In this document: in pieces, positions 587-16,250 of the stretch | How the letters are laid out: each line of letters begins with the position of its first letter | How positions within the stretch are numbered: position 1 is the stretch's first letter | DNA from: Deltaproteobacteria bacterium | GTDB taxonomy: Bacteria > Myxococcota_A > UBA796 > CAJQPC01 | Reading direction: 5' to 3' | Assembly (NCBI GenBank): GCA_016706815.1 | Contig: JADJIW010000040.1 | Location: 1-16,250 of the forward strand | DNA: 16,250 bases | Program-made: the position numbers and the translations under genes | The notes under the pieces: generated by a model | Told to the model about the DNA's origin: nothing | Databases searched by the model: none | What the model saw: the letters and a program-made list of their open reading frames with translations, nothing else

Positions 587-807
587 CGGCCACGCTCACG
601 CAGGAGCAGCTCGCTGGCGGTCTCCCCGTCCCCATCCAAAGGCTCCGGCGTGAACTCCTGGTCTTGAAATCGCGCGCCTGTTCCGTCATTCAGCAGATAT
701 TCGACCTGCCGGTGCCGGGCAGGGAGTGAGCCAAACGAGCGCGTGACCTGCGCCGTGACATGACGACGAGCGGCGCTCGGCTCGCCCTTCAGCTTGGAGT
801 TGGCCAT
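583..807 (-). CDS. Putative antitoxin partner of the PIN toxin (about 75 aa, MANSKLKGEPSAARRHV...)
   Basis: The internal ATG at 805-807 is preceded by GGAGGAAG 5 nt upstream. The ORF track's longer version from 864 has no RBS. There is a 4-nt overlap with the vapC start, and the size and position are typical of VapB/Phd-type antitoxins. I could not recognise a fold from sequence. Confidence 0.55.
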   Translation of the reverse strand: MANSKLKGEPSAARRHVTAQVTRSFGSLPARHRQVEYLLNDGTGARFQDQEFTPEPLDGDGETASELLLRERGR

Positions 808-870
808 GATCTTCCTCCGGGGGGACGGTCTACACCCCCCAGCATAGCGCCACACCCCCAACAAACGCCA

Positions 871-2481: not shown

Positions 2482-3216
2482 ATGCTGTCGTCCCTCGCCG
2501 TGCTGCTCCTGGGTCTAGCCCCCGCTGAGGCCGCGGAGTCCGTCTCCCTCCGTTACCTGCTCGCCGTCGATGGTGAGGTCATCGGGCACCGCGATCTCAA
2601 GATCAACTACCTGCCCACGGACTCCGGCGAGCTGCGGCTCATGGAGTCGTTCACCGAGCTCACCTTCTCCATCGCCGGGCAGCCCTACACCTACAAGCAG
2701 CGCCTCGGCGGCCTGGGCGGCGGCAACTTCAGCTCGGCGATCAGCGACAACGGCACCGGCCGCGAGGTGCAGGCCGTACGATCCAGCCTCGGCTGGACGG
2801 TCACCGTCGCTGAAGGCAAGACGGCGGAGGTCTACGCCTTGGGCCCCGCGGCCTTTGACCTCACCTCCCTCTCCTTGCTCGATCCCGCCGTGGCCGAGAG
2901 CCTCGCCGGGCGCAGCACGCTCAAGGTGCTCGTCGCCGAGACGGGCGGCGTGATGGAGGGCCCCCTTCGCCAGGCCGCCGACGTGCAGATCAAGCTCGGC
3001 GGCCAGATGATCACCTGCGACGAGTACGTCTGGAGCGTGCCCGAGGGTGAGGTCCGCCTGGACTACGGCCCTGAGGGCCACCTGATGCGCTACACCACCC
3101 GGGTCGCGGGCAAGGTCATCACCGCGACGCTGGACCGCCCTCCCCCGCCGCGCACCTACGGCACGACCATGGACGGGCCGCTGATTCAGTCGAGCGTCGG
3201 CGAAGAGACGCTCTAA
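2482..3216 (+). CDS. Secreted hypothetical protein (244 aa) with an N-terminal Sec signal peptide
   Basis: MLSSLAVLLLGLAPAEA|AESV... is a classic signal peptide with an AxA cleavage site. GC3 is high throughout. I recognise no domain. Its stop codon (3214-3216) overlaps the stop of the convergent FAD-subunit gene. Confidence 0.7.
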   Translation: MLSSLAVLLLGLAPAEAAESVSLRYLLAVDGEVIGHRDLKINYLPTDSGELRLMESFTELTFSIAGQPYTYKQRLGGLGGGNFSSAISDNGTGREVQAVRSSLGWTVTVAEGKTAEVYALGPAAFDLTSLSLLDPAVAESLAGRSTLKVLVAETGGVMEGPLRQAADVQIKLGGQMITCDEYVWSVPEGEVRLDYGPEGHLMRYTTRVAGKVITATLDRPPPPRTYGTTMDGPLIQSSVGEETL

Positions 3217-4181
3217 ACGCCGCTGATCGCCGCTTCAAGGGCCCGGCGCACCTCAACCCGCACCATCTTCTTGCGCCAGGGCGCGGGCCAGACATGCGTC
3301 GAGAGCGGGCTCACCTGCTTATACGCGGCCTCGGCCACGGCCTCGACGCCGCCCGCCTCCCAGGCCTCGGCCACGCCGCCCAGCTCCACCGGGCGCGGGC
3401 CCACAGACGAGACGACCACACGGGGGCCCCGATCCGGGTCAAAGGCCGCCGCCGTGAGCAAGAGCGGGTAGTCGATGCTGCCCCGGGCGCGCAGCTTGCG
3501 GTGAACCACACGGCCCGCGGGCGGCGGGGGCAAGATCACGGCGGTGAGCAGCTCATCCGGGGCGCGGCGGATCCAGTCGCGGCCATCGTCGCCATACAGC
3601 GCGGCGACGGCCACCCGGCGGGCGCCCCGCGTAGACACCAGCTCGACCTCGGCGTCATAGAGCAGGAGCCCCGGCGCGGTGTCGGCGGAGTGCGCGGCGT
3701 AACAGCCCTTGCCTTTGGGGGCGACGTGGCAGATCGCCCCCTCGGGCGCGCTGTGGCACTTCAAGCAGCCGCCGAGCGCCCCCCGCCAGAACGTCGACTG
3801 GTTGTACCAGGCGCAGCGGGTGTCGAGCATCAGGTTGCCGCCAAGGGTGCCCATGGCCTGAATCGTAGACGTGGCGATGGTGCGTGTGGCGGCGGCCAAG
3901 GCCGGGTACAGGCTCAACACCCGCACGTCCCGACCCACCGCCCGCAGCGTGACGCCGGCGCCGATGCGTAGGCCGCCCGCCTCGGTGACGGAGATCTCTC
4001 GCAGCGCCGACACCCCACCCAGACGGATGAGCGTCGGCGGGGTGAACAGACCGTACTTCATCGAGGGCAGAAGATCCGTGCCCCCCGCGATGAGCCGGGC
4101 CTGGGGGTGGTCGGTCAGCATCTGCGCGGCGTCGGAGACGGCGCGGGGCGAGAGCACAGAGAAGGTCGGCAGCGGCAGCAT
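3213..4181 (-). CDS. FAD-binding (medium) subunit of a molybdenum hydroxylase (CoxM/XdhB/HcrB-like). Carries a Cys-rich insertion.
   Basis: The N-terminus FSVLSPRAVSDAAQML...LIAGGTDLL matches the FAD_binding_5 family start (AGGT motif). It sits 3 nt downstream of the Mo-subunit stop. Residues ~123-160 (nt ~3702-3815) form a C-x15-C-x2-C-x8-C-x8-C insertion. Confidence 0.85.
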   Translation of the reverse strand: MLPLPTFSVLSPRAVSDAAQMLTDHPQARLIAGGTDLLPSMKYGLFTPPTLIRLGGVSALREISVTEAGGLRIGAGVTLRAVGRDVRVLSLYPALAAATRTIATSTIQAMGTLGGNLMLDTRCAWYNQSTFWRGALGGCLKCHSAPEGAICHVAPKGKGCYAAHSADTAPGLLLYDAEVELVSTRGARRVAVAALYGDDGRDWIRRAPDELLTAVILPPPPAGRVVHRKLRARGSIDYPLLLTAAAFDPDRGPRVVVSSVGPRPVELGGVAEAWEAGGVEAVAEAAYKQVSPLSTHVWPAPWRKKMVRVEVRRALEAAISGV

Positions 4182-4184
4182 AGC

Positions 4185-6503
4185 TCAGGCTCCGTCAAAG
4201 GAGGCGCGGCGGGCCTCACGGTCGCGGCGCTCGATGGCCTTGAGCACACGGTCGGGGGTGAACGGCGCCTCGTTCATCCACACGCCGCAGGCGTCAAAGA
4301 TGGCGTTGGCGATGGCGGGCACCGTGGAGAGCTGGGGGCCCTCCCCGGCCTCTTTGGCGCCGAAGGGGCCCTCCTTGTCGTTGGACTCGACGATGATCGT
4401 GATGATCTCCGGCGTCTCAAACACCGTGGGGATCTTGTACTCCAAGATCGACGGCGCCCGGTGCAGACCGTGTTTGGTGTAGCTCTGCTCCTCAGCCAGG
4501 GCCTCGCCCACGCCCATGTACACGCAGCCCTCGATCTGGCCCTCCACGATGGTGGGGTTTAAGGCCTTGCCGCAGTCGTGCGCCGCCCAGATGCGCTCGA
4601 CGGTGACGAAGCCCGTCTCCGGGTCTACCACCACCTCGGCCACCTGGGCGGTGAACGAGTACGCCGGAGACGGCCCGACGGACTGGCGGCGGAAGCGGTT
4701 GCCGATCTTCGGGGGCTTGTAGTGCCCCACAAAGCCTAAGGTGCCGTGGCGCTCTTCAGCGAGCTGCACGGCCTCGGCAAAATCGAGGGCCTTCTCTGGC
4801 GCAGACTCGCGGAACACCTTCCCGCCAACCATCACCACGTCCTCGCCGCCGAGCTTCTCCGCCGCCGCTGCCCGCATCACCGCGTAGAGCTGATCCGCGG
4901 CCATCTTGGCGGCGTTGCCCGCGAAGAAGGTCACTCGCGAGGAGTACGAGCCCAGGTCTACGGGCGTGAGCCCGGTGTCGGCCTCCAACACCACACAGTC
5001 GGTCTCGGGGATGCCCAGGCGCCCGGCGACGATGGCCGCGAGCATGTGGTTAGAGCCCTGGCCGATGTCGGCGGTGCCCGAGAGGATCGACACCCGCCCC
5101 GAGCGGTCGGCGCAGATCTGCACGGCGCTCTGGGGCATCTCCGACTGCACGATCGGGTGCAGGGCCCCGCACATATACGCCGAGGTGGCCAGGCCGATGC
5201 CCCGGTTGGGGCCGAGCTTGCCGCGCTTCTCCAAGTACCCCGAGGCGGCGAGCACCTTGTCGACACACTCTTTGAGCGCGACGGACGTGATGCGCAGGCC
5301 GTTGGAGGTCTCTGTGTCGGGCTCCACACAGTTCTTGAGGCGCAGGGCGTCGGGGCTCATGCCGATGGCGTTCGCGAGCTTGTCGAGGTGAAGCTCTAAG
5401 GCGAAGCGCGGCTGAATCGCGCCGTGGCCTCGTTTGGGGCCGCAGGGCGGGTGGTTTGTGTAGCAGCGGTGGCTCTCAAACTGCCAGTGATCGAGCTTGT
5501 ACGGCAGCGGCAAGAACACGCCGAAGTAGTACGCCGTGACCACGCCGTAGCTGGCGTAGGCCCCGCCCGCGGCCCAGGCCTTAAAGTCGGCGGCGGTGAT
5601 GCGCCCGTCGTTGGTGACGCCCATCTTCAGGGTCATCCGTGTGGGGTGACGGCCTCGGTGGGCATAAAACACCTCCTCACGGTCTAGGATAAACTTCACC
5701 GGGCGGCCGGTCTTTCGCGCCAAGGCCGCCGCGCACAGCTCGTTGGCGAAGGGGTCGGACTTGCCGCCATAACCCGCGCCCACATCGGGCTTGATCACCC
5801 GCACGTCCTGCTCACGCATCCCCAGCACCTTGGACACGATGCGGTGCAGGTAATGGGGGATCTGTGTAGACGACCAGAGGGTGAGCTTGCCGTCTGGGTG
5901 GGGTTGGGCCAGGGCGACCTGGGTCTCCAGGGGCACATGGGTGGAGCCGGGGTAGTCGTAATTCGACTCGATGATCACATCGGCCTCGGCGAACCCGGCG
6001 GCGGGGTCACCGTATTTCTGGAACACCCGGCGTAAGACGTTTGTGTCGCCTTTGCGGCGGCGCTCGTCATGCAGGAGCGGCTTGTCGGGGTTCAGCGCGT
6101 CCTCGATGGTGAACACGCCCTCTAGGGGCTCGTACTCCACACGGATGAGCGCGGCGGCGCGGCGGGCCGTCTCTTGATCCACGGCGGCCACGGCGGCGAC
6201 CTCGTCCCCGATGAACAAGACCTTGCCCACGGCCAAGGCGTGCTCGTCCTGGGCGACGGGGATGACGCCATACGGCGTGGGGAGATCGGCCCCGGTGAGC
6301 ACGGCGTAGACCCCGGGCAGGGCCAAGGCGGCGCTCACGTCGATGCTCAAGATTCGGGCGTGGGCGTGGGGCGAGCGGTTGAAGGCCCCGTGCAGCATCC
6401 CGGGCAAGGTGAGGTCGTCGGTGAAGCGGGCGGCGCCGGTGATCTTGGGCAAGCCGTCGATCTTGCCGCCGCGACGGCCAACAGGCGAATCAGGCTCGCT
6501 CAT
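4185..6503 (-). CDS. Molybdopterin-binding large subunit of a xanthine dehydrogenase/aldehyde oxidase/CO dehydrogenase-family enzyme (772 aa)
   Basis: N-terminus ...GKIDGLPKITGAARFTDDL..., an internal GAGYGGK motif, and an overall length and pattern typical of the Ald_Xan_dh_C/C2 families. The start ATG (6501-6503) overlaps the small-subunit stop (ATGA). Confidence 0.9.
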   Translation of the reverse strand: MSEPDSPVGRRGGKIDGLPKITGAARFTDDLTLPGMLHGAFNRSPHAHARILSIDVSAALALPGVYAVLTGADLPTPYGVIPVAQDEHALAVGKVLFIGDEVAAVAAVDQETARRAAALIRVEYEPLEGVFTIEDALNPDKPLLHDERRRKGDTNVLRRVFQKYGDPAAGFAEADVIIESNYDYPGSTHVPLETQVALAQPHPDGKLTLWSSTQIPHYLHRIVSKVLGMREQDVRVIKPDVGAGYGGKSDPFANELCAAALARKTGRPVKFILDREEVFYAHRGRHPTRMTLKMGVTNDGRITAADFKAWAAGGAYASYGVVTAYYFGVFLPLPYKLDHWQFESHRCYTNHPPCGPKRGHGAIQPRFALELHLDKLANAIGMSPDALRLKNCVEPDTETSNGLRITSVALKECVDKVLAASGYLEKRGKLGPNRGIGLATSAYMCGALHPIVQSEMPQSAVQICADRSGRVSILSGTADIGQGSNHMLAAIVAGRLGIPETDCVVLEADTGLTPVDLGSYSSRVTFFAGNAAKMAADQLYAVMRAAAAEKLGGEDVVMVGGKVFRESAPEKALDFAEAVQLAEERHGTLGFVGHYKPPKIGNRFRRQSVGPSPAYSFTAQVAEVVVDPETGFVTVERIWAAHDCGKALNPTIVEGQIEGCVYMGVGEALAEEQSYTKHGLHRAPSILEYKIPTVFETPEIITIIVESNDKEGPFGAKEAGEGPQLSTVPAIANAIFDACGVWMNEAPFTPDRVLKAIERRDREARRASFDGA

Positions 6504-7015
6504 GTGGACCTCCCGTTCATCCGCTCGCGGGCCTGGCGGGCGGCGGCGAGGATCTTCGTGTAGCCCGTGCAGCGGCAGATGTTGGCGCCGAGCACCTCGT
6601 TGAGCTCGGCGTCGGTCGGGTCGGGCCGCTCGTCAAACAGGGCCTTGAGCGCCATGACAAAGCCCGGCGTGCAATACCCACACTGGGCGGCGACCTGCTC
6701 GTGGAACGCGGCCTGGATGGGGTGCAGCGCGCCGCCGACGGCCACACCCTCGACGGTGAGCAGCTCGGCGTCCTGAGCCTCGGCGGCCAGGGTGATGCAC
6801 GAGAGCCGCGGCGCGCCGTTCACCAAGACCGTACACGCGCCGCAGTCGCCGACGTCGCAGCCGTGCTTGGAGCCGGTGAGGCCGAGGTCTTGGCGCAGGA
6901 GGTTGAGGAGCGTGCGGTTCGCGGGGATCAACAGGCGTCTGCGGTCGCCGTTGACCCTCAGCGTGAGGACCAGATCGTCATCGGGCTCGGTGGGCATGGC
7001 CGCCACTATAACCAA
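6500..7015 (-). CDS. [2Fe-2S]-binding small subunit of the molybdenum hydroxylase (CoxS/HcrC-like)
   Basis: Plant-type ferredoxin motif (GCDVGDCGACTV) plus the second 2Fe-2S motif (CGYCTPG...ICRCTGY). The start is either TTG at 7013-7015 or ATG at 6995-6997; neither has a strong RBS, so the start is uncertain. Confidence 0.85.
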   Translation of the reverse strand: MVIVAAMPTEPDDDLVLTLRVNGDRRRLLIPANRTLLNLLRQDLGLTGSKHGCDVGDCGACTVLVNGAPRLSCITLAAEAQDAELLTVEGVAVGGALHPIQAAFHEQVAAQCGYCTPGFVMALKALFDERPDPTDAELNEVLGANICRCTGYTKILAAARQARERMNGRST

Positions 7016-7030: not shown

Positions 7031-9257
7031 TCAGACGCGCTGGGCGCCTCGGGCGCGGCGCAGGCGATCGGACTCCCCTTCAGCGCGGCGGGCGGCGCGC
7101 ACCTCGTCCTCCAAGCGGCGCAGAGCCTCTCCGGCGGCGGAGACCCGGTCTTGCTCGCCGATCAGCTCTTGGCGGGCTTTGCGCGCGGCGCCGCCGATGT
7201 CGAGGAGCCGCGCCGCCGTGGCCGTGAGCTTGGACTCCCAGCGGGCGTGCTCCTCTAAGGTGGCCTCGCGGTCGGCCTTGGCGGCGAGGAGCTCCGGGCG
7301 CTCGGTGGGGTCGGGGCGCTGACCGGCCTGCTCCATCGTCTCGAGACGGCGGATGCGGGCCTCGATCTGGGCGAGGTCTTGGGCGATGGCCTCGGGGCGC
7401 AGCTCTTTGAGGCGACCATCCAGGCGATCGGCCTCGGCGGCCAGGTCAGCGGCCTCGGCGCGCAGCTCGACGACGGTGCGGCGTAGGTCGGCCTCGGCGG
7501 GGGTGGGCAGCTCGGCCTGGCCGATCGCCAGCTCCAAGGCGGCGAGGGACTCCTCAACCCGGGCGAGGAGCTGGCCGCCGCGGGTCTTGGGCGCAGGCGG
7601 CGCGACCACCGGGGCGGCGACGTTCGGCGGCGCAGGGGCGGCGGCGGCAGGTTCAGCGGCGGCGGCGCCGCGCTCCACACGCACCTGGGGGCGGCTGGCG
7701 AGCAGCTCGGGCAGACGCTCGGGGGTGACGTGGGCGCGCAGGTCGCGGCCATAGGCCAAGGGCACCTTGTCGGCGTTGCGCCCGGCGTTGGAGGCGGTCA
7801 CCATCACGACGACGGAGATGAGGATCATCACCGGGAGCGCCGCCATGGCCGAGCCGAAGGTGAGCCCCACGGCGATGGCCCACAACACCCACATCGGCCC
7901 GAGCAGGTTGGGCAAGGTCCGCATCACGCGGTTCACCCGGCCGTCTTCGTCTTCAGCCCGGCGGCGTTTTTTGGCGACGAAGCCCCGGCTCTCGGCCAAG
8001 GCGGCGAGGTTATCGACGGTGTCTTCGCTCACGCCGGAGACGAGGCGGAAGCGGCGCTGGTCGAGCACGGGGCTCACCAACAGGGCGTCGATGGGCAGCC
8101 CCGCCCGCAGCGCGACGCCGCGGGCGAGGAGCTCGGCGTCGGTGATCTCCGTGGACTCCGCCGTCCACTCTTCAGGGAGCTTGGGCAGGCCGAGCTGCAC
8201 CACCACCTTGTTGATCGCCTCGGCGGCGTAGCGGGCGCTCGTCTTGCCCGCCCGGGCGCTGCGCCGGGCTTGCCTGCGGCTGGCTTGGCTGGAGTGGCGC
8301 AGCTCCAGCTCAAAGCGGCCTTCAGGCAAGGCCAACGGCGCGGGCTCTAAGGTGTAGCTGGGCTGGGGTGGCGGCGGCGGCGGGGGCTCGTCTTTGGGCG
8401 GCGCGCGGCGGTTCTGAGCCCGCGGCGGCGGGGCGACGATGCGCCCACGAAGGGCCTCGGCGACCTCAGCGGCGCCTTGGGGGCGCTCGTCTGGGGAGAG
8501 GCGCAAGAGCGCGTGGATGATGGCGCAGAGGTCGTCCGGCAGCTCCGGGCGCAGGCTGGCGAGGGGCTCGACCTCGCCGGAGAGCTGGCGTTTGAGCACG
8601 GCGGCGGCGTTGGGCCCGGCGAAGGGCGCCCGGCCCTGAAGCGGCGTAATACAGCACCGTGCCCAAGGAGTAGAGGTCGCTGCGGGGGTCGGCGCGCTCG
8701 CCGTCGTAGACCTCGGGGGCGGCGTGCCCGGCGGTGCCCAAGGCCCCGGTGTGCCGGGTGGACTGCCACTGCTCTAGCCGGGCGAGGCCAAAGTCGGTGA
8801 GCGTCGCCACGCCCGCGTCGTCGATCATCACGTTCGCCGGGGTGATGTCGCGGTGCAGCACGCCGGCGCGGTGGGCGGCGGCGAGCACGTCGGCCAGCCG
8901 CGCGCCGATGGCCCGCAGCGCCGTGCCGCCGATGGGGCCTTCAGCGGCCACCCGCTCGGAGAGGGTGCGGCCCGGGTGGTAGGGCATCGACAAGGCGAGG
9001 TGGCCGTCGAGCTCGTGCAGCTCTTGGGCGAGGAGCGCGCCCTCATGTTTGATGAGCCCCGCCGTCATCACCTCGCGGCGCAGGCGCTCCCGGGTGGAGG
9101 CGTCGCCGACGAGGTGGGCGTGGAGGATCTTGAGGGCGACCCGGGCGCCGCGCACCCGATCTTCAGCGAGCCAGACCGTCGCCATGCCCCCACGGCCCAG
9201 CTCACCGATGAGCGTGAACCGCTCACCGAGCACCGCGCCCCGGGCCAAGGCGCTCAA
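7031..9257 (-). CDS. Hanks-type Ser/Thr protein kinase (about 740 aa). Kinase domain, Pro-rich linker, two-helix TM hairpin, long C-terminal coiled-coil. The frame is split by a 1-nt insertion near 8631-8634.
   Basis: The N-terminal piece (8466..9257) has the Gly-loop GELGRGGMATVW, VALK, HRDITPANV, DFG and APE. After DLYSLGTVLYYAASG the frame degenerates. The downstream piece (7031..8599) continues the kinase C-lobe (...AVLKRQLSGEVEP...IIHALLRLSPDERP). Deleting one base in CCCGGCCC at ~8631-8634 restores ...YYAASGRAPFAGPNAAAVLKRQL.... The TM hairpin is LGPMWVLWAIAVGLTFGSAMAALPVMILISVVVMV. The C-terminal 200 aa are heptad-like and Ala/Glu/Arg/Leu-rich. The start is TTG at 9255-9257 with a weak RBS. 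Confidence 0.8.
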
Positions 9258-9333: not shown

Positions 9334-10155
9334 CTATTGTGGGGTGGCCGCCGCTGGCAAACCTTTCCCCAAACGGGCCATGGTGACCCACGCGGCGACG
9401 TCATCGACCTCCCAAGAGTTGTCGGACCCACGCCAGAGCAGGCGGCCGTCACCGTCGAGCACCAGGATGTGCAGGCTGTGGAGGATGTCGCCTTGGCTCT
9501 CGACCCGGCTGGCCCCGGCGCGTAACAACAGCGTCTTGAGCGCGTCGAGCTCTAAGCGGGCGAAGGTCCACGTTGCGGGGTTCGCGCCGCGCTCGGCGCC
9601 GTAGGCCTTGAGCACCTCCAGAGAGTCCCGGGCGGGGTCTAGGGTGACGCTCACGATGCGCCCGTGGTCCAGCTCCCCTTGAAGCTCCTTGAGCTTGCTC
9701 GCCAACAAGGGGCAGGCCTCGGGCATGGGGCAAGACGTGAACAAGAAGGTGAGCACCGTCGGCACGCCTTGGCCCGCGCCGATGAGCACCGGGCCGTCCA
9801 CGCCGGGCATCGTGAGCGCCGGGAGCTGCTCGCCTTCGGCCAGGGCGATCACCGCGTCGGGGGCCAGGGCCAGGGGCTCCTCGTGGCCGGTGACCTTGGC
9901 GCCGATGATCCGCACCGTGCCGTCTTCAGCGGTCATCAGGTTCGCCTGGATGAGATCCCCAGGGCGAAGCTGCCGGGCGAGGTTGGGATCGACGACGAAG
10001 GTGGTGGCGCCCTCCTCAAAGGCGCCGGGCACGGGACCGTGCTCCAGCCGCACGCTGTGCTGGCCGACGTCGCGCACCACGCCGTTGACGGAGTAGGTGT
10101 CTCCAGCGACAAAGTTACAGCCGGCCAGAGCGAAGACGGCGATGAGCCCGCGCAT
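9334..10155 (-). CDS. Lipoprotein with an N-terminal CusF-like small beta-barrel domain fused to an SCO1/SenC-like thioredoxin-fold domain
   Basis: ATG at 10153-10155 is preceded by GGAGG 8 nt upstream (the ORF-track start at 10164 is GTG). The lipobox is MRGLIAVFALAG|C. The SCO-family pattern is FLFTSCPMPEACP, ...VTLDPARDS...LKAY..., and a conserved His in ILHSLHILVLDGDGRLL. The N-domain (GVVRDVGQHSVRLEHGPVPG...LRPGDLIQANL) resembles CusF-type metallochaperone folds. Confidence 0.7.
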   Translation of the reverse strand: MRGLIAVFALAGCNFVAGDTYSVNGVVRDVGQHSVRLEHGPVPGAFEEGATTFVVDPNLARQLRPGDLIQANLMTAEDGTVRIIGAKVTGHEEPLALAPDAVIALAEGEQLPALTMPGVDGPVLIGAGQGVPTVLTFLFTSCPMPEACPLLASKLKELQGELDHGRIVSVTLDPARDSLEVLKAYGAERGANPATWTFARLELDALKTLLLRAGASRVESQGDILHSLHILVLDGDGRLLWRGSDNSWEVDDVAAWVTMARLGKGLPAAATPQ

Positions 10156-10239
10156 CAGAGGCACCTCCTGAGGTTGGCAAGCCTATTCACGCGGGCGCGC
10201 CGCGTCGACGGGGCGTCGTGTCGCGGGTAAACTCCTCAG

Positions 10240-10545: not shown

Positions 10546-12345
10546 TTGGGGCCGATGCCCCCGGCCACGACGCTTCGGGATGTAGACGTTCACCCGGAGT
10601 ACATCCGGCTGCGCTTCACCACCGACCGCGACTTCATCGTTGAGCTGACCCCAAGCCGTGACGGCGCCTCGCCGGTGTGCAGCGGCGGCGGCGCCGATCT
10701 GTACGTGCGCCTCGACCTCGACGCCGATCAAGAGAGCTTCGACTGGGAGCCCCTGCCGCCCATCGTCGATCAGCTCTGCGCCCGGATGGTGGACCACCCG
10801 CCGCGGTTCCCGACCTCGGAGAAGGTGTTGGCCCCCGTCGCGCCGCCGCCCGCTCCCGAGCGCCCGGCGCTGCCGTTTCGACCGATGCACGTCGTCGGCG
10901 TCCTCTGGGCCGTGGCGGTCCTCGCCGCCCTGCCGCGGGCGCCCTTGGCCTGGGGGGTGGGCCTTCTCGCGCTCTTGATCCGCCTGGGGCTCTCCCCGCG
11001 CTGGATCCTCGTCGGCGGCGACGCGGCCTATGAGCGCCTGCTCGACGCGAGGGGGCGCGGCGACTCAAACCCCTACTACGGCGACGGCTGGCAGGGGTTG
11101 ATGGGCCTCGTGTACACGCTCCTGGGCGAGCCCAAGACGACGGACTGGGTTCACCTCACGAACCTCGGCTTCTCGGCCTTGACCGTGGTGGCGCTCGTGG
11201 GGCTGATCTCGGCCTTGGGGGGCAGCCCCCTCGCCGCGGGCCTCGCCGGGCTCGCCCTGGCCGCGGCCCCGCTGCCGGTGCGGCTGGCGGCCACAGAGAC
11301 CGACTTTGTGCTCGTCGGGCTCGTGCAGGTGCTCGCGCTCTACGGCGCGGCGCGTGGGGATCGCCGCGGGGCGGCCCTCGCGGCGCTCTCTGTGGGCCTC
11401 TCCGTTCACCTGCGGCCCCTGGGCGGCGCCTTCGCGCTTCTGCCCTTGGGCATGCTCGCCTGGCGGCGCTCGGCCTGGGCCGTCGTGTTGGGCCTGGGGC
11501 TCTGCGCCTGGCGCGCGGTGGAGCTGCTGCCGCTCGTGCGGGAGGGCAGCGGCGTGGGGGTCATCCCCTTCGGTCGGCTTCTGGAGACGGACTTCTGGGT
11601 CAAGCGCCTCAACCCCTTGGGCCGCGCCCCAGCGCTGCACCTCAGCCCCTTGTGGTCGCCGTTCGCGTTGCCGCTCCTCGCCGTGGCCGCGGTGCAGCTC
11701 TCCAAGCCCGAGACCCGCCGCGTTTGGATCTGGCCTTTGGGCTTGGGCGTCGTGCTCAGCGAGCTGCCGTACCTGCCGAAGACCTCTCCGCTAGGCGATC
11801 CCCTGCGGTTTTTGCTCCCGGCGACGGCGATGTGGGCGGGGCTCGCGGGGTTTGGCGCGGCCTTGGCCTGGGAGGGCGGCGCCAAGGCCCGCCTGGTCCT
11901 GGCGGTGGCGGCCCTGAGCTTCGTCCCCCCATGGCTCTCAGGCCAGCCGCGCTGGACGTGGCAGGTTGAGCACCTGGCCTTCGTCGAGGCCACCCGGCTC
12001 GCCCCCGAAGGCGCCGAGGTGCTCTTTGACCCGGCCTTTGACGAGAACGGCAAGATCAGGATGTGGCTCAACACCCGGGGCGGGGCGCGGTGGCGGCCTT
12101 GGGCGCTGGGAGAGACCCCCGCCGAGGGCGCCTTTGTTTACCTCGGCAGCGCCGATCACCACCGGCGTTTAGCGGCCGGCGGCGCCGGGCCGAGCTTGGC
12201 CCAAGGCTGCGCGCTCACGCCGCTGACCACGATGGACCTGCCGCCCGAGACCGACGGCTGGATTGAGCTCGGCGACGCGCCGATCCCCGCCGGGCTCTAC
12301 CGCGTCGACGCCTGCGGCCAGGGCTCAGGCTCCCCAAACCCCTGA
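10546..12345 (+). CDS. Large polytopic integral membrane protein (at least 9 predicted TM helices) with N- and C-terminal soluble domains. Function unknown; a GT-C-like glycosyltransferase topology is possible.
   Basis: High GC3 over 1.8 kb. Multiple hydrophobic stretches (VVGVLWAVAVLAAL, WGVGLLALLIRLGL, FSALTVVALVGLISALG, LAGLALAAAPL, FVLVGLVQVLALYGA, AALSVGLSV, WAVVLGLGLCAW, FALPLLAVAAV, IWPLGLGVVLS, MWAGLAGFGAALA, LVLAVAALSFV). The start is uncertain: TTG 10546, ATG 10555, or a frameshifted upstream ATG at 10476. Confidence 0.7.
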   Translation: MGPMPPATTLRDVDVHPEYIRLRFTTDRDFIVELTPSRDGASPVCSGGGADLYVRLDLDADQESFDWEPLPPIVDQLCARMVDHPPRFPTSEKVLAPVAPPPAPERPALPFRPMHVVGVLWAVAVLAALPRAPLAWGVGLLALLIRLGLSPRWILVGGDAAYERLLDARGRGDSNPYYGDGWQGLMGLVYTLLGEPKTTDWVHLTNLGFSALTVVALVGLISALGGSPLAAGLAGLALAAAPLPVRLAATETDFVLVGLVQVLALYGAARGDRRGAALAALSVGLSVHLRPLGGAFALLPLGMLAWRRSAWAVVLGLGLCAWRAVELLPLVREGSGVGVIPFGRLLETDFWVKRLNPLGRAPALHLSPLWSPFALPLLAVAAVQLSKPETRRVWIWPLGLGVVLSELPYLPKTSPLGDPLRFLLPATAMWAGLAGFGAALAWEGGAKARLVLAVAALSFVPPWLSGQPRWTWQVEHLAFVEATRLAPEGAEVLFDPAFDENGKIRMWLNTRGGARWRPWALGETPAEGAFVYLGSADHHRRLAAGGAGPSLAQGCALTPLTTMDLPPETDGWIELGDAPIPAGLYRVDACGQGSGSPNP

Positions 12346-12495: not shown

Positions 12496-12597
12496 ATGTC
12501 TGAATGGAGAGATCGTCTGCTGCGCTGGCTCGACGGGCTGCTCTTTTTCCCCGAGCCAGAGCCCGCCCGCGTTGAGGCCCGGCGGCGCCGTCGATGA
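12496..12597 (+). CDS. 33-codon upstream ORF (MSEWRDRLLRWLDGLLFFPEPEPARVEARRRRR), translationally coupled to the next gene
   Basis: GGAGG lies 7 nt upstream of the ATG. The stop TGA (12595-12597) overlaps ATG 12594 of the downstream gene (ATGA). The first codons use rare low-GC codons (TCT GAA AGA GAT). The ORF is below the ORF-track size cutoff. Confidence 0.3.
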   Translation: MSEWRDRLLRWLDGLLFFPEPEPARVEARRRRR

Positions 12598-13154
12598 ACC
12601 CTGCCTCGCGTGCTCGCGCAAGGGTCGCGCGGGTGACCGCCGCCCCCCACGACCCGCCCCTGCCCCGCCACTTCCACCGCATCGAGGCCCGGGGCCATGT
12701 GGTGTACTGCCTGAGCCCCTTGGCCCCCGCGGAGCTCGTCCAGGCCGGGGGGCTGCCCCGGGAGGCGATCCTCGGCGTCACCGACCGCGACGTCGGGGAC
12801 TGGGCTTGGGGCCTTCGCCCAAACCAGCTCTTCATGGACCTCTTGACCCGCCTGCTCACCGAGCACGCGGAGCTTGAGCCGACGCTCACCCAGGCCGCCT
12901 TGGCGCTGCGGGTGGGCGTGCTGGAGCTCTGGGACGGCCGCGTCGGCTTCTCCCAGCGCGGTGAAGAGGATCTGCTCGGCTGCTTTCAGGTGCGTGAGGG
13001 TCGGCTGATGCCGCGCTCGTTCAACCCCAACCGGAGCTACACCTTGGTGACCGAGCGAGGCGCCATGCGGCTGCCCGCGCGACTTCAGGCGGCTCTGCTC
13101 GCCGAGCTGCGGTCGCTGCGGGTCTTGTGGCCTGGGCCCTCGACGACGCTCTGA
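12594..13154 (+). CDS. Hypothetical protein (186 aa)
   Basis: GC3 is high across the ORF. The overlapping antisense 292-aa ORF is Arg/Gly/Pro low-complexity. No domain recognised. Confidence 0.55.
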   Translation: MNPASRARARVARVTAAPHDPPLPRHFHRIEARGHVVYCLSPLAPAELVQAGGLPREAILGVTDRDVGDWAWGLRPNQLFMDLLTRLLTEHAELEPTLTQAALALRVGVLELWDGRVGFSQRGEEDLLGCFQVREGRLMPRSFNPNRSYTLVTERGAMRLPARLQAALLAELRSLRVLWPGPSTTL

Positions 13155-13207
13155 GGCCACCGCGCCGAGGGTCATTTGCGCGGCGTCGGGTTTCCCCGGC
13201 GTCGCGC

Positions 13208-14161
13208 TCAGGACTCTGGGGCGTCGCTGCCGTTGTGGACGTTCACGATGGTGAGCTGCTCGACGGCGATGCGCACCTGGCCGCTGAGGCGGCGGCGCTC
13301 AAACAGCCGCGCCGCGCCCTCGATGCCCGCTTGGGCCACCTGCTCTCGGGCGCGGAAGAGGTGCAGGGTGAGCAGGCCGGGCTCTAAGGACAACATCCGC
13401 GAGAGCTCATCGGCGTAACGCCAGCCCACCTCCGCGGGGCGAACCCCGGCGGCGAGATCCTCGAGCCGCGCCCGGGCCAAGGCCAAGGTCACGAGGTGAT
13501 GCACCCGAGAGCTGAGCACGATGGCGCCGCCCCGGTGCTTGATCTCCACATCGACGTGCTCTTGGTCCTGGCTCACGCGCAGGGTGAGGGCGATGGTCTC
13601 TAAGCGTGGGCGCAGAGACGTGTCCCAGGTGGTCGGCAGCTCAGCGCTTCGCGGCGCGACGGGCAAGATGAGGCGCCAAGACTCGTCTCCTAAGACGAGG
13701 CGCTGGCCATCGAGCGCCTCGGACTCCAGGCCCTCGTGCTCGACGATCCAGTGGCCGTCGTTGCCTTCGTAGACGATGGCGAGCATCCCGTCGGCGCTGG
13801 GCAGGCTGAGGATCTCGGCCTCCGACACCCGCAGGAGCTGATCGGCCTCTCGGACCGCCGCCGCGCCTGGGGGGCCGTCGTGGGCGAGCACGAAGCCGCG
13901 GTGGGGGCCGAAGCGCACGCTGACGCCGGCGCTGAGCCCGCGACCGCGGCCGCTCTCCAGGCGCTCGCCGTCTACAAAAGTGCCGTTTCGACTGCCCAGA
14001 TCACGCAGTTGCCACTCTTTGCCGGTCCAGCGTAAAGCGGCGTGCTCAGCGCTGATCTGGCGATCGTCGATGCGCACGGCGCAGTGGGCGGCGCGGCCGA
14101 TGAGCGTGCGCGCGCCGAGGGCGATCAGGGCGTGGTCGTCGTCGGATCGGAGAATTCCCAT
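13208..14161 (-). CDS. FHA (forkhead-associated) domain protein, 317 aa, with an uncharacterised ~200-aa C-terminal region
   Basis: The N-terminal FHA signature is LIGRAAHCAVRIDDRQISAEHAALRWTGKEWQLRDLGSRNGTFVDGERL (GR...S..HA...DLGS.NGT.V.G). Confidence 0.8.
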   Translation of the reverse strand: MGILRSDDDHALIALGARTLIGRAAHCAVRIDDRQISAEHAALRWTGKEWQLRDLGSRNGTFVDGERLESGRGRGLSAGVSVRFGPHRGFVLAHDGPPGAAAVREADQLLRVSEAEILSLPSADGMLAIVYEGNDGHWIVEHEGLESEALDGQRLVLGDESWRLILPVAPRSAELPTTWDTSLRPRLETIALTLRVSQDQEHVDVEIKHRGGAIVLSSRVHHLVTLALARARLEDLAAGVRPAEVGWRYADELSRMLSLEPGLLTLHLFRAREQVAQAGIEGAARLFERRRLSGQVRIAVEQLTIVNVHNGSDAPES

Positions 14162-14348
14162 AGGCGGGAACGTAGCACGCTAGGTCACTCTGAACGCCCC
14201 CAACAGACGCCCTTGAGGGCCTGAACCAATCAAAGTCCGCACGATACCCGCCGAAATCAATTGAAAGAGAGGCGGCGAAGCGCCTGATCTATGCTGCGCT
14301 AGGTTCGCGCGGCGCGTGACCCTGCGACCCCCTCACGGAGAATGACTG
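14162..14348. promoter_or_regulatory. Divergent promoter region between the FHA gene and the caspase-like gene
   Basis: A 187-nt intergenic region with locally reduced GC (AACCAATCAAAGTCCGCACGATACCCGCCGAAATCAATTGAAAGAGAGG), containing TTGAAA-like and TTGAGG-like -35 candidates. GGAGA lies 7-8 nt before ATG 14349. Confidence 0.35.
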
Positions 14349-15821
14349 ATGTCCGGCAACACCTATGTGGTCCTGATTGGTGTCAACGAGTACCCCAAGC
14401 TTGGGGCGGGCGCCTCGCTCAAGGGCTCCTGCAACGACATGCGCCACTGGCTCCGCTTCGCCCGGGTGAGCCTCGGGGTGCCCGGCGAGCAGGTTCAGCT
14501 CCTCACCCACCCGGCCCTTGAGGGCGAAGACGTGCGGCTGCCCAAGGGCCACCACCGCGGCGCGAGCTTGGCCGAGGCGAACGGGGCGATCGACGCCCTC
14601 ATCCATTGGCTGCAAGAGAACCCCACGGGCACCGGGCTCATCGTGTACTCCGGCCACGGCGGCCACATCAACCCCGGCGACGACCCCAACGCCACGGACT
14701 TTGACGGCGACCGCCTCGCCTTGGGCCTCAGCGACGCGGAGATCACCGACGGCACCCTCCGCGGCGCCCTCGTCGTTCAGCAGCTTGACCTGCGCCTCGC
14801 CGCCTTGGGCTTGAACGAGCGCGTGACCTTGGTGATCGACGCCTGCTATGGCGACCTCAACGTGCAGCGTTTTGACCGGGAGCTGATCACCGCCGAGCCC
14901 CAGCCCGACGCCACGACCGGCCTGCGGGTGCTGCTCTCCACCGCCGTCGGCGCGGCCAGCTACGAGGCCTACATCGCCGGTCAGTGGCAGAGCGCCTACT
15001 CCTTCGCGCTCCTCACCTTGCTCAGCCAGTGGGGCAACGCCCAGGTGGGCGGCGTTCACATCGTCCGGGCGAGCCACCGCGAGCTGACCTTCCGGGCGCG
15101 TGAGCTGCTCAACGTGCTCGGCTACACCGACCAGGCCCCGGCCTTCGCGGGGGCGGCGCGGGCCCTGGACGCCCCGTTCAACAACCCGTCGATCTTTGAG
15201 GTGCCGGTGAGGCCCTCGTGGGTGCCGGACGGCAACCGGAAGATCAAGGAGCTGGGCGGGGACGCTGACGACCTGGGCGTGTGGACGTTGAAGACCGGCA
15301 GCACCATCCTCGCGACGGGGCTGGTGAACAACTCCGGCGCGGCGGTGAGCTTCAACGGCGGCGGCTCGACCATCCAGAACGGCAAGGCGATGTGGTACCT
15401 CCGCAGCACCGGGGCGCCGCAGAGCTTCAGCAGCCTCACGATGGAGTGGCTGGCGCAGACCGCCAGCGGCGGATCGATCTCGTGGAACGTGCCCTCCAAC
15501 CTCACCTATGCCGAGACCGAGGACTACGCGCCGTCGATGACGACGATCACCACGGCCCCGGCGGGCACCTCCTTCGGCAACTTCAGCATCATCGACGGCA
15601 ACAGCGACCCCAAGAGCATGTGGGTGTCCGTCGAGGTGACCTCCAACGGCGCGGGCAGCTACAAGGTCAACACCCTCTCGTTCACCGCGACGAGCAGCGT
15701 CACGCCCTACCAGGTCACCCCGTTGCCCCCGCCCGGCTCAAGCTCGGGGAGCTGGACCAAGAACCAGTCCAACATCCCCTTCACCGTCGGCGTGACCTAC
15801 TCCTCCAACACCCTCGGCTGA
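14349..15821 (+). CDS. Caspase-like cysteine peptidase (C14 family) with a ~210-aa uncharacterised C-terminal domain; no signal peptide
   Basis: YVVLIGVNEYPKLGAGASLKGSCNDM...GTGLIVYSGHGGH (catalytic His) ...RVTLVIDACYGD (catalytic Cys) match the caspase/metacaspase His-Cys dyad fold. The C-terminal residues ~280-490 are Ser/Thr/Asn/Gly-rich with Trp residues every ~30-45 aa (W312, W349, W379, W425, W469). Confidence 0.85.
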   Translation: MSGNTYVVLIGVNEYPKLGAGASLKGSCNDMRHWLRFARVSLGVPGEQVQLLTHPALEGEDVRLPKGHHRGASLAEANGAIDALIHWLQENPTGTGLIVYSGHGGHINPGDDPNATDFDGDRLALGLSDAEITDGTLRGALVVQQLDLRLAALGLNERVTLVIDACYGDLNVQRFDRELITAEPQPDATTGLRVLLSTAVGAASYEAYIAGQWQSAYSFALLTLLSQWGNAQVGGVHIVRASHRELTFRARELLNVLGYTDQAPAFAGAARALDAPFNNPSIFEVPVRPSWVPDGNRKIKELGGDADDLGVWTLKTGSTILATGLVNNSGAAVSFNGGGSTIQNGKAMWYLRSTGAPQSFSSLTMEWLAQTASGGSISWNVPSNLTYAETEDYAPSMTTITTAPAGTSFGNFSIIDGNSDPKSMWVSVEVTSNGAGSYKVNTLSFTATSSVTPYQVTPLPPPGSSSGSWTKNQSNIPFTVGVTYSSNTLG

Positions 15822-16250
15822 GGAACGGGCCACACCACCCGCAGCCCCATCGTTAAAAAATGGCGCTCTGGGGTGCTTCCGAAGCGGGTGGCGAGGCGCT
15901 GGGTCATCGGGGGGGAGCCATAAAAGCCCCCTCGCACCGCGCGGTGGGTGCCCGCCTCTGGGATATCCACCGCTCGCCCAGCCTGAACTGGCCCTCGCAC
16001 CGACCACCAGTTGCGACACCACGTTCGAGCGTTTCCAGCGAGGTCACGCACGCCGTAGGGCTCTCGTCACCCTCCACAGCCCCCAAAGGAAGCATACCGG
16101 GTGGTGAGGGTGAAGAGCCAAGCACCCGCGACCAGCGCGGCTCTATCTCCCGGCCCCAAGGGGTGAATCGCCCATCCACACCTCGCCCGGCCTTCTCGAT
16201 CTCAAGCTCGTTGGGCAGGTGTCCGCCCATCCAAGCGGCGGCGCGCGCGG
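15797..16250 (-). CDS. C-terminal part of an FGE-sulfatase (SUMF1/formylglycine-generating-enzyme-like) domain protein. Partial (start beyond the window). The frame is broken by a 1-nt deletion near 16060-16075.
   Basis: Two minus-strand ORF pieces carry consecutive FGE-family motifs: HLPNELEIEKAGRGVDGRFTPWG (compare LPTEAEWEYAARG...YPWG) in one frame, and PYGVRDLAGNARTWCRNWW...HRAVRGGFYGSPPMTQRLATRFG...MGLRVV (compare GLYDMAGNVWEW...RVVRGGSW...GFRVV) in the other. Stop at 15797-15799. Confidence 0.6.

What the first reader, a model, noticed from the sequence alone, without database searches (positions are those of the whole stretch)
13208..16250. FHA protein, caspase-like protease and FGE-sulfatase-like protein clustered near a Ser/Thr kinase: candidate regulated-proteolysis or conflict module
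Several lines point to a linked module:
- A cytoplasmic caspase-like C14 peptidase with an unrecognised C-terminal domain is transcribed divergently from an FHA (phospho-Thr-binding) protein.
- Its 3' end overlaps a convergent FGE-sulfatase-like domain gene.
- A membrane Hanks kinase lies about 5 kb away.

FHA proteins are canonical readers of Hanks-kinase phosphorylation. Caspase-like proteases act as effectors or activators in bacterial cell-death, anti-phage and developmental pathways. FGE-sulfatase-like domains recur as putative ligand-binding modules fused to Pkinase and Peptidase_C14 domains in Pfam architectures. Here the same three domain types occur as separate neighbouring genes, which suggests a split version of those fusions that could sense a signal through the FGE-like domain and respond by phospho-regulated proteolysis. 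None of this is established for this locus.
Basis: partly seen in the sequence, partly recalled or inferred. Interest (0 to 1): 0.7.

Follow-up and report, generated by a model that had tools for sequence, protein, structure and literature searches.

The report
Kinase, FHA regulator and metacaspase cassette
Three neighbouring genes (a Ser/Thr kinase with a lectin-like FGE domain, a phospho-threonine-reading DNA-binding protein and a metacaspase-like protease) stay together across many uncultured myxobacteria-like genomes, and probably form a signalling unit that switches on the protease gene, giving a testable handle on how bacterial caspase relatives are controlled.

Summary

The FGE piece is not a separate gene. 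In every relative it is the C-terminal domain of a ~790-aa cytoplasmic Hanks kinase. In the window it carries a 1-nt homopolymer deletion, most likely a long-read assembly error.

Caspase and kinase-FGE co-occur in 10 lineages, down to 27% caspase identity, with an FHA gene beside them in the 8 whose contigs extend far enough. No other neighbour is shared across these lineages. Caspase and kinase are always tail-to-tail. The Hanks kinase 5 kb away is not part of the module.

The predicted structure shows the FHA protein is FHA + beta domain + OmpR-type winged helix, an EmbR-like pThr-dependent regulator. A 10-bp-phased direct repeat (YGNAA-N5-YGNAA; window 14252-14266) lies 23-24 bp upstream of a -10-like hexamer in front of the caspase gene in four lineages.

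Best model: kinase -> FHA-wHTH -> transcription of the metacaspase.

The FGE domain lacks the catalytic cysteines. No PADLOC hits for the three module proteins, no NTPase, no reverse transcriptase, and purifying selection throughout. A defence role is therefore unsupported but not excluded.

The parts
13208..14161 (-). FHA-wHTH regulator, 317 aa. Domains: FHA 1-95, beta domain 100-165, flexible linker ~166-185, OmpR/PhoB-type winged helix 190-307.
14162..14348 (.). Divergent FHA/caspase control region, 187 bp. Conserved blocks in the window clade: 14223-14238 GAACCAATCAAAGTCC; operator (next part); -10-like hexamer; 14302-14321 GC-rich near-palindrome; RBS GGAG 14337-14340.
   Evidence: Alignment of 8 window-clade intergenic regions. 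The 5'UTR hairpin is not better than shuffles, z -0.97. No Rfam hit here. No sigma-70 consensus hit.
14252..14266 (+). Candidate operator CGAAATCAATTGAAA: two YGNAA half-sites in direct repeat with 10-bp phasing. It lies 97 bp upstream of the caspase ATG and 91 bp from the FHA ATG.
   Evidence: Unique in the window; 0.16 matches expected. Pattern YGNAA-N5-YGNAA gives 9 hits in 178 kb, all in intergenic DNA 73-123 bp upstream of a start codon, beside the triad. These include caspase upstream regions in the window clade, L005, L020 and L026. Resampling expects 0.08 lineages with a hit; 4 of 9 observed. The pattern was defined post hoc.
14290..14295 (+). -10-like hexamer TATGCT, 23 bp downstream of the second half-site.
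   Evidence: Invariant in 8 window-clade sequences. The same 23-24 bp spacing to a TA-initial hexamer is seen in L005 (TAGACT), L020 (TAGGTG), L026 (TATTGG) and the L015 beta-helix gene (TACAGC). The promoter itself is inferred.
14349..15188 (+). Metacaspase-like catalytic region, residues 1-280: p20 with His103 (14655-14657) and Cys166 (14844-14846), plus a p10-like segment.
   Evidence: PF00656. Profile against PDB: Arabidopsis metacaspase-4 6w8s E 4e-20, with p20 at 7-189 and p10-like at 197-280. Invariant across 30 family members: D30, G102, G104, D164, C166. Dyad present in all 10 lineages. No TM helix or signal peptide.
15189..15821 (+). Caspase C-terminal ~210-aa beta-rich region of unknown fold, the fastest-evolving part of the module. 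The coordinates include the stop codon.
   Evidence: No Pfam hit in any of 30 family members. Only 12-26% identity between lineages against 28-52% for the catalytic part. dN/dS 0.26-0.48. The AF2 model is unusable, pLDDT 42.
15797..16250 (-). 3' end (last ~150 codons) of the Pkinase-FGE-sulfatase gene. It is cut by the window end and carries a 1-nt deletion in the C run at 16058-16060.
   Evidence: Pfam FGE-sulfatase in two frames. DNA alignment to L007, L009 and L001 shows CCCC versus CCC. Full-length orthologs are 768-825 aa with Pkinase 26-247 and FGE-sulfatase 539-780. They have no TM helix, intact kinase motifs and no FGE Cys pair.

Best explanation
This is a self-contained three-gene signalling cassette found in uncultured Myxococcota-like bacteria.

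Proposed steps, each marked as shown or inferred:
1. A soluble cytoplasmic Hanks-type Ser/Thr kinase carries a non-catalytic FGE/C-type-lectin-like C-terminal domain. The architecture, the intact kinase motifs and the loss of the FGE cysteines are shown. That this domain is the ligand-binding input is inferred.
2. The kinase autophosphorylates on Thr, and the FHA domain of the neighbouring protein docks on it and/or is phosphorylated. This is inferred by analogy with PknH-EmbR. The FHA pThr pocket is intact.
4. It binds a 10-bp-phased direct repeat (YGNAA-N5-YGNAA) placed 23-24 bp upstream of a -10-like hexamer, a position typical of class II activators. From there it controls transcription of the metacaspase-like gene. 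In some lineages it may also control adjacent genes for secreted or lipoproteins. Motif conservation is shown; binding and the direction of regulation are inferred.
5. The metacaspase-like protease is the output. It has an intact His/Cys dyad and an acidic S1 pocket, which predicts cleavage after Arg/Lys. Its substrates and cellular consequence are unknown.
For: Module conservation:
- Caspase and kinase-FGE are adjacent and tail-to-tail (overlap of 4-68 bp, or a gap of 7-20 bp) in the 8 lineages where the junction was measured; the called genes place them tail-to-tail in L025 as well, and convergent with a 191-aa gene between them in L026.
- The FHA gene is adjacent in all 8 lineages whose contigs extend far enough. 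Its position and orientation vary.
- All-against-all ORF clustering across 8 of these lineages finds only these three families shared among three or more of them.

Components:
- FHA-wHTH fold.
- FHA pocket and recognition-helix residues are invariant across 52 homologs.
- Members of the FHA-wHTH family outside the triad always sit next to another Ser/Thr kinase. The kinase/FHA-wHTH pair therefore looks like a generic signalling unit.
- Kinase motifs VAxK, HRDxKPxN, DWG and GTPAxMxPE are intact in 8 lineages.

Operator:
- All 9 matches in 178 kb lie in intergenic DNA 73-123 bp upstream of a start codon, beside the triad. Four are upstream of caspase genes whose products are only 27-46% identical.
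- The spacing to a -10-like hexamer is constant.
- Resampling control.

Selection and precedent:
- All three genes are under purifying selection.
- PknH-EmbR precedent: the FHA domain is required for phosphorylation, and phosphorylation stimulates promoter binding (PMC4601284).
Against: - No experiment or expression data. All relatives are MAG or metagenome contigs.
- The operator pattern was defined after looking at the sequences (YGMAA first, then relaxed to YGNAA). Five of the 9 caspase upstream regions lack an exact match: L015, L018, L019, L021 and L025.
- The -10 elements are only consensus-like, and the sigma-70 scan found none.
- No Pfam Trans_reg_C hit for the wHTH. The assignment rests on a predicted structure.
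- Nothing in this model explains why caspase and kinase are invariably convergent and overlapping, or why C14-FGE fusions exist elsewhere. Both facts hint at a direct protein-level link.
- No phosphatase is present in the module.
- In the window itself the kinase-FGE frame is broken.
Confidence: 0.5

Rival explanations
1. The circuit is post-translational, a regulated-proteolysis circuit. The FGE-like domain of the kinase binds the metacaspase, for example its variable C-terminal domain. The kinase phosphorylates the protease or its substrate. The protease cleaves the FHA-wHTH protein in its exposed linker, or cleaves the kinase, releasing or destroying the regulator. This would resemble the Pkn8/Pkn14-MrpC-protease logic of Myxococcus, which I cite from memory.
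For: - The invariant caspase/kinase-FGE pairing.
- Peptidase_C14-FGE-sulfatase fusion proteins exist: 33 of 671 bacterial metacaspases (PMC3501461). By Rosetta-stone logic this suggests the two domains act together.
- The FHA protein has a low-confidence linker at 166-185 containing PR(S/T) in several lineages. The protease is predicted to cleave after basic residues.
Against: - No direct evidence of interaction.
- Linker Arg residues are not conserved in L016, L020, L021 or L026.
- This model does not explain the conserved operator in front of the caspase gene.
- It is compatible with the best explanation rather than exclusive of it.
Confidence: 0.2
2. The cassette is an anti-phage or abortive-infection conflict system. 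The intracellular FGE/lectin-like domain senses an invader molecule, kinase signalling follows, and the caspase-like protease kills or arrests the cell.
For: - FGS (FGE-sulfatase) domains are proposed intracellular invader sensors, coupled to caspase, trypsin, kinase and FHA modules in predicted conflict systems that are enriched in multicellular bacteria (PMC8195603; PMC7159879).
- Proteases fused to FGE sensors occur in defence modules (PMC12642450).
- One triad (L025) sits next to a methyltransferase plus ResIII/restriction-endonuclease genes.
Against: - No PADLOC hit for caspase, FHA or FGE. Only the generic kinase domain of the distal, non-module kinase matches PD-T4-6 models.
- No STAND, MoxR or other NTPase, and no reverse transcriptase or DGR in the annotated neighbourhoods. 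Effector-associated domains were not searched for.
- The FGE domain is as conserved as the kinase domain (43-63% against 49-60%), with dN/dS 0.14-0.19.
- The locus keeps the same flanking genes across the window clade.
- A transcriptional output is slow for abortive infection.
Confidence: 0.2
3. The three genes are neighbours by chance or shared ancestry only and have no functional link. Alternatively, the FGE gene is a real sulfatase-maturing enzyme.
For: The window alone shows only adjacency. The genes are not an operon, being arranged divergently and convergently.
Against: - Co-occurrence survives rearrangement and complete turnover of flanking genes in 10 lineages.
- The catalytic Cys pair of FGE is absent in all lineages.
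- No sulfatase gene lies nearby.
Confidence: 0.03

Closest known systems
PknH-EmbR (Mycobacterium tuberculosis): a Ser/Thr kinase paired with an FHA-containing OmpR-type (SARP) transcription factor
   Different: The domain order is reversed (FHA at the N-terminus, wHTH at the C-terminus). There is no BTAD/TPR-like domain, and an extra beta domain sits between the two. The kinase is soluble with an FGE-like domain, not a membrane receptor kinase. The output gene is a metacaspase, not arabinosyltransferases.
FGS (FGE-sulfatase/C-type-lectin)-centred predicted conflict systems (Kaur, Burroughs, Iyer, Aravind 2020, 2021)
   Same: An intracellular FGE-like domain is combined with caspase, Ser/Thr kinase and FHA modules, in bacteria with a multicellular habit.
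   Different: Those systems are built around STAND, MoxR, KAP or GTPase NTPases, use effector-associated adaptor domains, and are often DGR-diversified. Here there is no NTPase and no reverse transcriptase, and the FGE domain is under purifying selection.
Peptidase_C14-FGE-sulfatase fusion metacaspases, and 'Proteo1' Ser/Thr kinases with an FGE-sulfatase domain
   Same: The same three domain types are involved. C14-FGE fusions make up 4.9% of bacterial metacaspases (PMC3501461). A bacterial kinase family has a C-terminal FGE-sulfatase domain (bioRxiv 10.1101/2025.01.12.632604).
   Different: Here the C14 and FGE domains are on separate, convergently transcribed genes. Whether this kinase belongs to 'Proteo1' was not tested. 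No paper found in the searched library describes the three-gene cassette.
Eukaryotic and plant metacaspases (AtMC4, AtMC9, Yca1, TbMCA2)
   Same: These are the best sequence matches among solved structures. The p20 and p10-like regions, the His/Cys dyad and the acidic residues aligned with the metacaspase S1 pocket are all present.
   Different: There is no N-terminal prodomain and no long MC4-type linker. The unique ~210-aa C-terminal beta-rich region has no known family. Ca2+-site residues were not examined.

Membership tests
Peptidase C14 (caspase/metacaspase) | Pfam PF00656 above the gathering score | tested here: met
   32.7 bits against a cutoff of 21.4.
Peptidase C14 (caspase/metacaspase) | Catalytic His-Cys dyad | tested here: met
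   H103 (SGHG) and C166 (DACY). C166 is invariant and H103 is >=90% conserved in 30 family members. Both are present in all 10 lineages.
Metacaspase subtype | p10-like region and acidic S1-pocket residues (Arg/Lys specificity) | tested here: met
   The profile aligns 197-280 to AtMC4 340-417. D30 aligns with the D of GCVNDV, and D164 with the D of DSCH. Both are invariant. The specificity itself is inferred, not measured.
FHA domain proteins | Pfam FHA hit plus the conserved Gly-Arg / Ser-x-x-His / Asn pThr-binding residues | tested here: met
OmpR/PhoB-type winged-helix DNA-binding domain | N-terminal beta sheet, three helices and a C-terminal beta hairpin; structural match to solved members | tested here: met
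OmpR/PhoB-type winged-helix DNA-binding domain | Sequence match to Pfam Trans_reg_C | tested here: not met
   Only FHA and Yop-YscD_cpl are reported at E <= 0.01.
EmbR/SARP regulators | N-terminal OmpR-type domain + BTAD + C-terminal FHA | tested here: not met
   The order is FHA - beta domain - wHTH. No BTAD helices in the model and no BTAD Pfam hit.
Formylglycine-generating enzyme (true FGE) | Pfam FGE-sulfatase fold | tested here: met
   E 5e-31 for the full-length ortholog. The window fragments score E 1.3e-7 and 1.2e-3.
Formylglycine-generating enzyme (true FGE) | The two catalytic (copper-binding) cysteines near the C-terminus | tested here: not met
   In the alignment to T. curvata FGE 6s07 and human FGE, 'LCHESYC' corresponds to a gap plus 'GSPPMTQ'. 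No Cys pair in any of 8 lineages.
Formylglycine-generating enzyme (true FGE) | Genomic association with a sulfatase | tested here: not met
   No sulfatase gene within 7-10 kb in L001, L005, L025 or L026.
Hanks-type Ser/Thr kinases | Catalytic Lys, HRD, DFG-type Asp and an activation segment ending in APE | tested here: met
   VA(M/I)K, HRD(I/L)KPxN, DWG and GTPA(F/Y)MxPE are present in 8 lineages. The kinase domain lies beyond the window end.
NTPase-centred / DGR-linked FGS conflict systems | STAND, MoxR or other regulatory NTPase; a reverse transcriptase with a hypervariable FGS C-terminus | tested here: not met
   No such genes in the annotated neighbourhoods. Only three gene families are shared. 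FGE dN/dS is 0.14-0.19. Effector-associated domains were not searched for.
Known anti-phage systems (PADLOC-DB 2.0) | A model hit for the component proteins | tested here: not met
   No hit for FHA, caspase or the FGE fragments. The generic kinase domain of the distal kinase hits PD-T4-6 models. The full-length kinase-FGE was not scanned against PADLOC.

The most novel reading that the evidence does not exclude
The cassette is a previously undescribed, self-contained bacterial 'checkpoint-to-caspase' pathway. An intracellular lectin-like sensor on a Ser/Thr kinase would signal through an FHA transcription factor to induce a metacaspase that executes cell death or a developmental or lytic programme in social Myxococcota. 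This would be a prokaryotic counterpart of eukaryotic kinase/FHA-to-caspase signalling and the first defined regulatory input for a bacterial metacaspase.
Probability: 0.25. Interest if true: 0.8.

Novelty: new variant of a known kind. Interest (0 to 1): 0.55.

Why it matters
Bacterial metacaspase and orthocaspase homologs are widespread, but their regulation and physiological roles remain largely unknown. This cassette offers a compact, testable circuit:
- a dedicated kinase with a candidate ligand-binding domain;
- a dedicated pThr-reading transcription factor;
- a candidate operator;
- a protease with predictable P1 specificity.

It also gives a concrete context for the unexplained but recurrent association of FGE-like (C-type-lectin fold) domains with kinases and caspases. 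It extends the PknH-EmbR type of Ser/Thr-kinase-to-transcription signalling to a new regulator architecture outside the Actinobacteria. If the output is cell death or lysis, it bears on programmed death and multicellular behaviour in myxobacteria.

Tried and rejected
No fold search was run on it.
- A profile search with the 30-sequence caspase alignment through the word-indexed database returned only the 6 known relatives plus one.
The narrower one gave 5 loci.
- Exact-sequence look-ups failed for the window caspase, for P0001 and for the Chondromyces crocatus FHA homolog. No cultured carrier of the full triad was therefore confirmed.
- NCBIfam and PADLOC gave no specific family for the three module proteins.
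- Upstream regions of the kinase genes showed no shared motif.
- The GC-rich near-palindrome in the caspase 5'UTR does not fold better than shuffles. There is no Rfam family in the region.
- The sigma-70 and terminator consensus scans found nothing at 13000-16250.
- Rejected: the true-FGE/sulfatase-maturation reading, because there is no Cys pair and no sulfatase.
- Rejected: the DGR-target reading, because there is no reverse transcriptase and selection is purifying.
- Rejected: the role of the distal membrane kinase, because it is not conserved with the module.
- Literature searches found no description of this three-gene cassette. The library is incomplete.


Full report
**What is in the window**

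The window is ~70% G+C. Pfam confirms three elements:
- an FHA protein at 13208-14161(-), E 1e-17;
- a Peptidase_C14 protein at 14349-15821(+), 32.7 bits against a cutoff of 21.4;
- FGE-sulfatase matches on the minus strand at the right edge, split over two frames (15904-16248 and 15797-16051).

The caspase stop and the FGE stop overlap by 25 bp.

A Hanks kinase lies at 7031-9257(-) and is also split into two ORFs. Its L001 ortholog has a hydrophobic segment at residues 452-489.

**Frameshifts**

Alignment with relatives shows a missing C in a C run at 16058-16060 (gagagCCCtac against CCCC) in the FGE region. There is an extra base near 8634 in the distal kinase. A radical-SAM gene at 871-2404 is likewise split: Radical_SAM model positions 5-76 and 91-165 fall on different ORFs.

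A 99%-identical MAG contig (L013, JADKFE010000010) has different frameshifts in the caspase and kinase-FGE genes. Its 'tig...' name suggests, but does not establish, a long-read assembly. In relatives all three genes are under purifying selection, with dN/dS 0.07-0.48. I therefore read the frameshifts as homopolymer assembly errors, although a recent pseudogene cannot be excluded.

**The FGE 'gene' is the tail of a second kinase**

The caspase family is rare. The word-indexed search found 6 clusters. An exhaustive HMMER scan of 1.84 billion proteins found 387 representatives at E <= 1e-3, most of them 470-520 aa.

In the 81%-identical relative L001 (a 637-kb contig), the gene convergent with the caspase encodes 790 aa, with Pkinase at 26-247 and FGE-sulfatase at 539-780. 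It has no TM helix. The kinase motifs are intact (VAxK, HRDxKPxN, DWG, GTPAxMxPE). The two catalytic cysteines of true FGEs are missing in every lineage. The next gene is DUF6151, not a sulfatase.

**Neighbourhood conservation**

I used exact-protein look-ups, one genome scan and one metagenome scan, followed by tblastn. Caspase and kinase-FGE genes lie together in 10 lineages: the window clade, L005/L014, L015, L016, L018, L019, L020, L021, L025 and L026.
- Caspase identity to the window falls as low as 27-32%.
- Caspase and kinase-FGE are tail-to-tail in the 8 lineages where the junction was measured, with an overlap of 4-68 bp or a gap of 7-20 bp. The called genes show the same arrangement in L025. 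L026 is convergent too, but has a 191-aa gene in between.
- The FHA gene is adjacent in all 8 lineages where the contig allows a judgement, but its position varies. It is divergent from the caspase (window clade), upstream of the kinase on the same strand (L005), divergent from the kinase (L016, L020, L025, L026), upstream of the caspase (L021), or separated from the kinase by a 2-kb insertion (L015).

All-against-all clustering of ORFs from 8 of these lineages finds only these three families (plus their antisense shadow ORFs) shared among three or more of them. The distal membrane kinase, the 186-aa ORF and the 599-aa membrane protein are syntenic only within the window clade.

**The FHA protein is a DNA-binding regulator**

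With 52 homologs, AF2 gives pLDDT 93 and pTM 0.87. The model shows:
- FHA domain (1-95);
- a second beta domain (100-165);
- a flexible linker;
- a beta sheet, three helices and a beta hairpin (190-307).

The family has about 85 full-length clusters. Five contexts were sampled from the FHA side. Two are full triads (L025, L026). Three pair the FHA-wHTH gene with a different adjacent Ser/Thr kinase, of Pkinase-TPR or plain Pkinase type, and have no caspase. So kinase plus FHA-wHTH looks like a general two-gene signalling unit, and the kinase-FGE type comes with a caspase.

**A conserved operator-like element**

Within the window clade, the 187-bp FHA/caspase intergenic region contains conserved blocks. 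These include CCGAAAtcaaTTGAAA and an invariant TATGCT.

A degenerate pattern, YGNAA-N5-YGNAA, has 9 matches in 178 kb from 13 loci on both strands. All 9 lie in intergenic DNA 73-123 bp upstream of a start codon, beside the triad:

| Locus | Position relative to start codon | Gene |
|---|---|---|
| window | -97 | caspase |
| L005 | -83 | caspase |
| L020 | -117 | caspase |
| L026 | -79 | caspase |
| L005 | -123 | beta-helix lipoprotein |
| L015 (two overlapping matches, giving three half-sites) | -101 and -91 | beta-helix lipoprotein, heading a co-directional string that ends in the caspase |
| L015 | -73 | small secreted redoxin-like ORF |
| L016 (a third, AGAAA, half-site follows the match) | -77 | secreted-protein ORF |

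In the four caspase promoters and the L015 site, a TA-initial -10-like hexamer follows the second half-site after exactly 23-24 bp. The intervening sequence is not conserved. This places the repeat around -43, as for class II OmpR/PhoB-type activators (inference).

Local-composition resampling expects 0.08 lineages with a match in the 150 bp upstream of the caspase; 4 of 9 are observed.

Caveats:
- The pattern was defined after inspection and was relaxed once.
- Five caspase upstream regions lack an exact match.
- No promoter has been mapped.

**The protease**

A profile search against PDB sequences puts it closest to metacaspases (AtMC4 E 4e-20), with p20 and p10-like parts. H103, C166 and the acidic D30 and D164 are conserved family-wide. 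They align to the metacaspase S1-pocket positions, which predicts Arg/Lys specificity (inference).

The C-terminal ~210 residues have no Pfam match in any of 30 members. They are the fastest-evolving part of the module, at 12-26% identity and dN/dS up to 0.48.

**Mechanism**

The best-supported reading is a kinase -> FHA-wHTH -> caspase-promoter cascade, by analogy with PknH-EmbR (PMC4601284). I put it at about 0.5.

A protein-level link between the FGE domain and the protease is not excluded and may coexist with it. It is suggested by C14-FGE fusions elsewhere (PMC3501461) and by the invariant tail-to-tail gene pair.

The conflict-system reading draws on predicted FGS-based systems (PMC7159879, PMC8195603). 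It lacks their defining parts, namely an NTPase and a DGR (effector-associated domains were not searched for). It also lacks any PADLOC hit and any sign of diversifying selection.

**Novelty**

I found no description of this cassette in the searchable literature. It is best classed as a new variant of known kinds: Ser/Thr-kinase/FHA-regulator signalling, and the bacterial metacaspase.

Noticed in passing
window ~1497-1530, ~8634, 16058-16060; L013 8390-8392 and 9776-9887: Three genes in 16 kb (radical SAM, distal Hanks kinase, kinase-FGE) carry single-base frameshifts; the two that could be aligned with relatives (distal kinase, kinase-FGE) lie in homopolymer runs. A 99%-identical MAG contig, whose 'tig' name suggests a long-read assembly, has different frameshifts in the same module. 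This looks like assembly error rather than biology.
   Followed up: partly
window 50-864 (-): A PIN-domain (VapC-like) ORF at 50-586, with a 93-aa upstream ORF at 583-864 overlapping it by 4 bp. Probably a toxin-antitoxin pair.
   Followed up: no
window 3213-7015 (-): A three-gene molybdenum hydroxylase operon of CoxM/CoxL/CoxS type (FAD_binding_5, MoCoBD_1/2, Fer2_2). It lies directly downstream of the distal kinase on the same strand.
   Followed up: no
window 9334-10164 (-): A fusion of a CusF-like copper-binding domain with an SCO1/SenC domain in a single ORF.
   Followed up: no
window 12594-13154 (+) and 10546-12345 (+): A 186-aa ORF, ~89% conserved in the window clade, with no Pfam or NCBIfam match. 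It is convergent with the FHA gene. Next to it is a 599-624-aa multi-TM protein with no Pfam match. Both are absent from the other triad lineages.
   Followed up: partly
L001 kinase N-terminus (MHDETTWSPDG) and window FHA linker, residues ~174-181 (ELPTTWDT): A (S/T)-T-W motif recurs at the extreme N-terminus of the kinase-FGE (window clade, L005, L015) and in the flexible linker of the FHA-wHTH protein (most lineages). These may be shared phospho-acceptor or FHA-docking sites. Unexplained.
   Followed up: partly
L005 14903-18540 (-); L015 4246-7876 (+): A beta-helix lipoprotein and a 412-aa protein with weak M12/reprolysin-like metallopeptidase hits accompany the triad in two lineages. They carry the same direct-repeat element upstream, so they may belong to the same regulon.
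   Followed up: partly
L015 11802-13463 (+): A 553-aa ORF is inserted between the kinase-FGE and FHA genes in this lineage only. It was not scanned against family libraries.
   Followed up: no
L025 10501-14927; L022 15621-16826; L027 4901-6690: Some triad or FHA-wHTH/kinase loci lie next to defence-like genes: N6_N4 methyltransferase plus ResIII/restriction endonuclease, or AAA_15/AAA_21 ATPase with DUF4276. This is anecdotal and was not tested for enrichment.
   Followed up: no
window 14302-14321 (+): A GC-rich near-palindrome, GGTTCGCGCGGCGCGTGACC, is conserved in the caspase 5' leader across the window clade. Its predicted RNA hairpin is no more stable than shuffled controls (z -0.97).
   Followed up: yes
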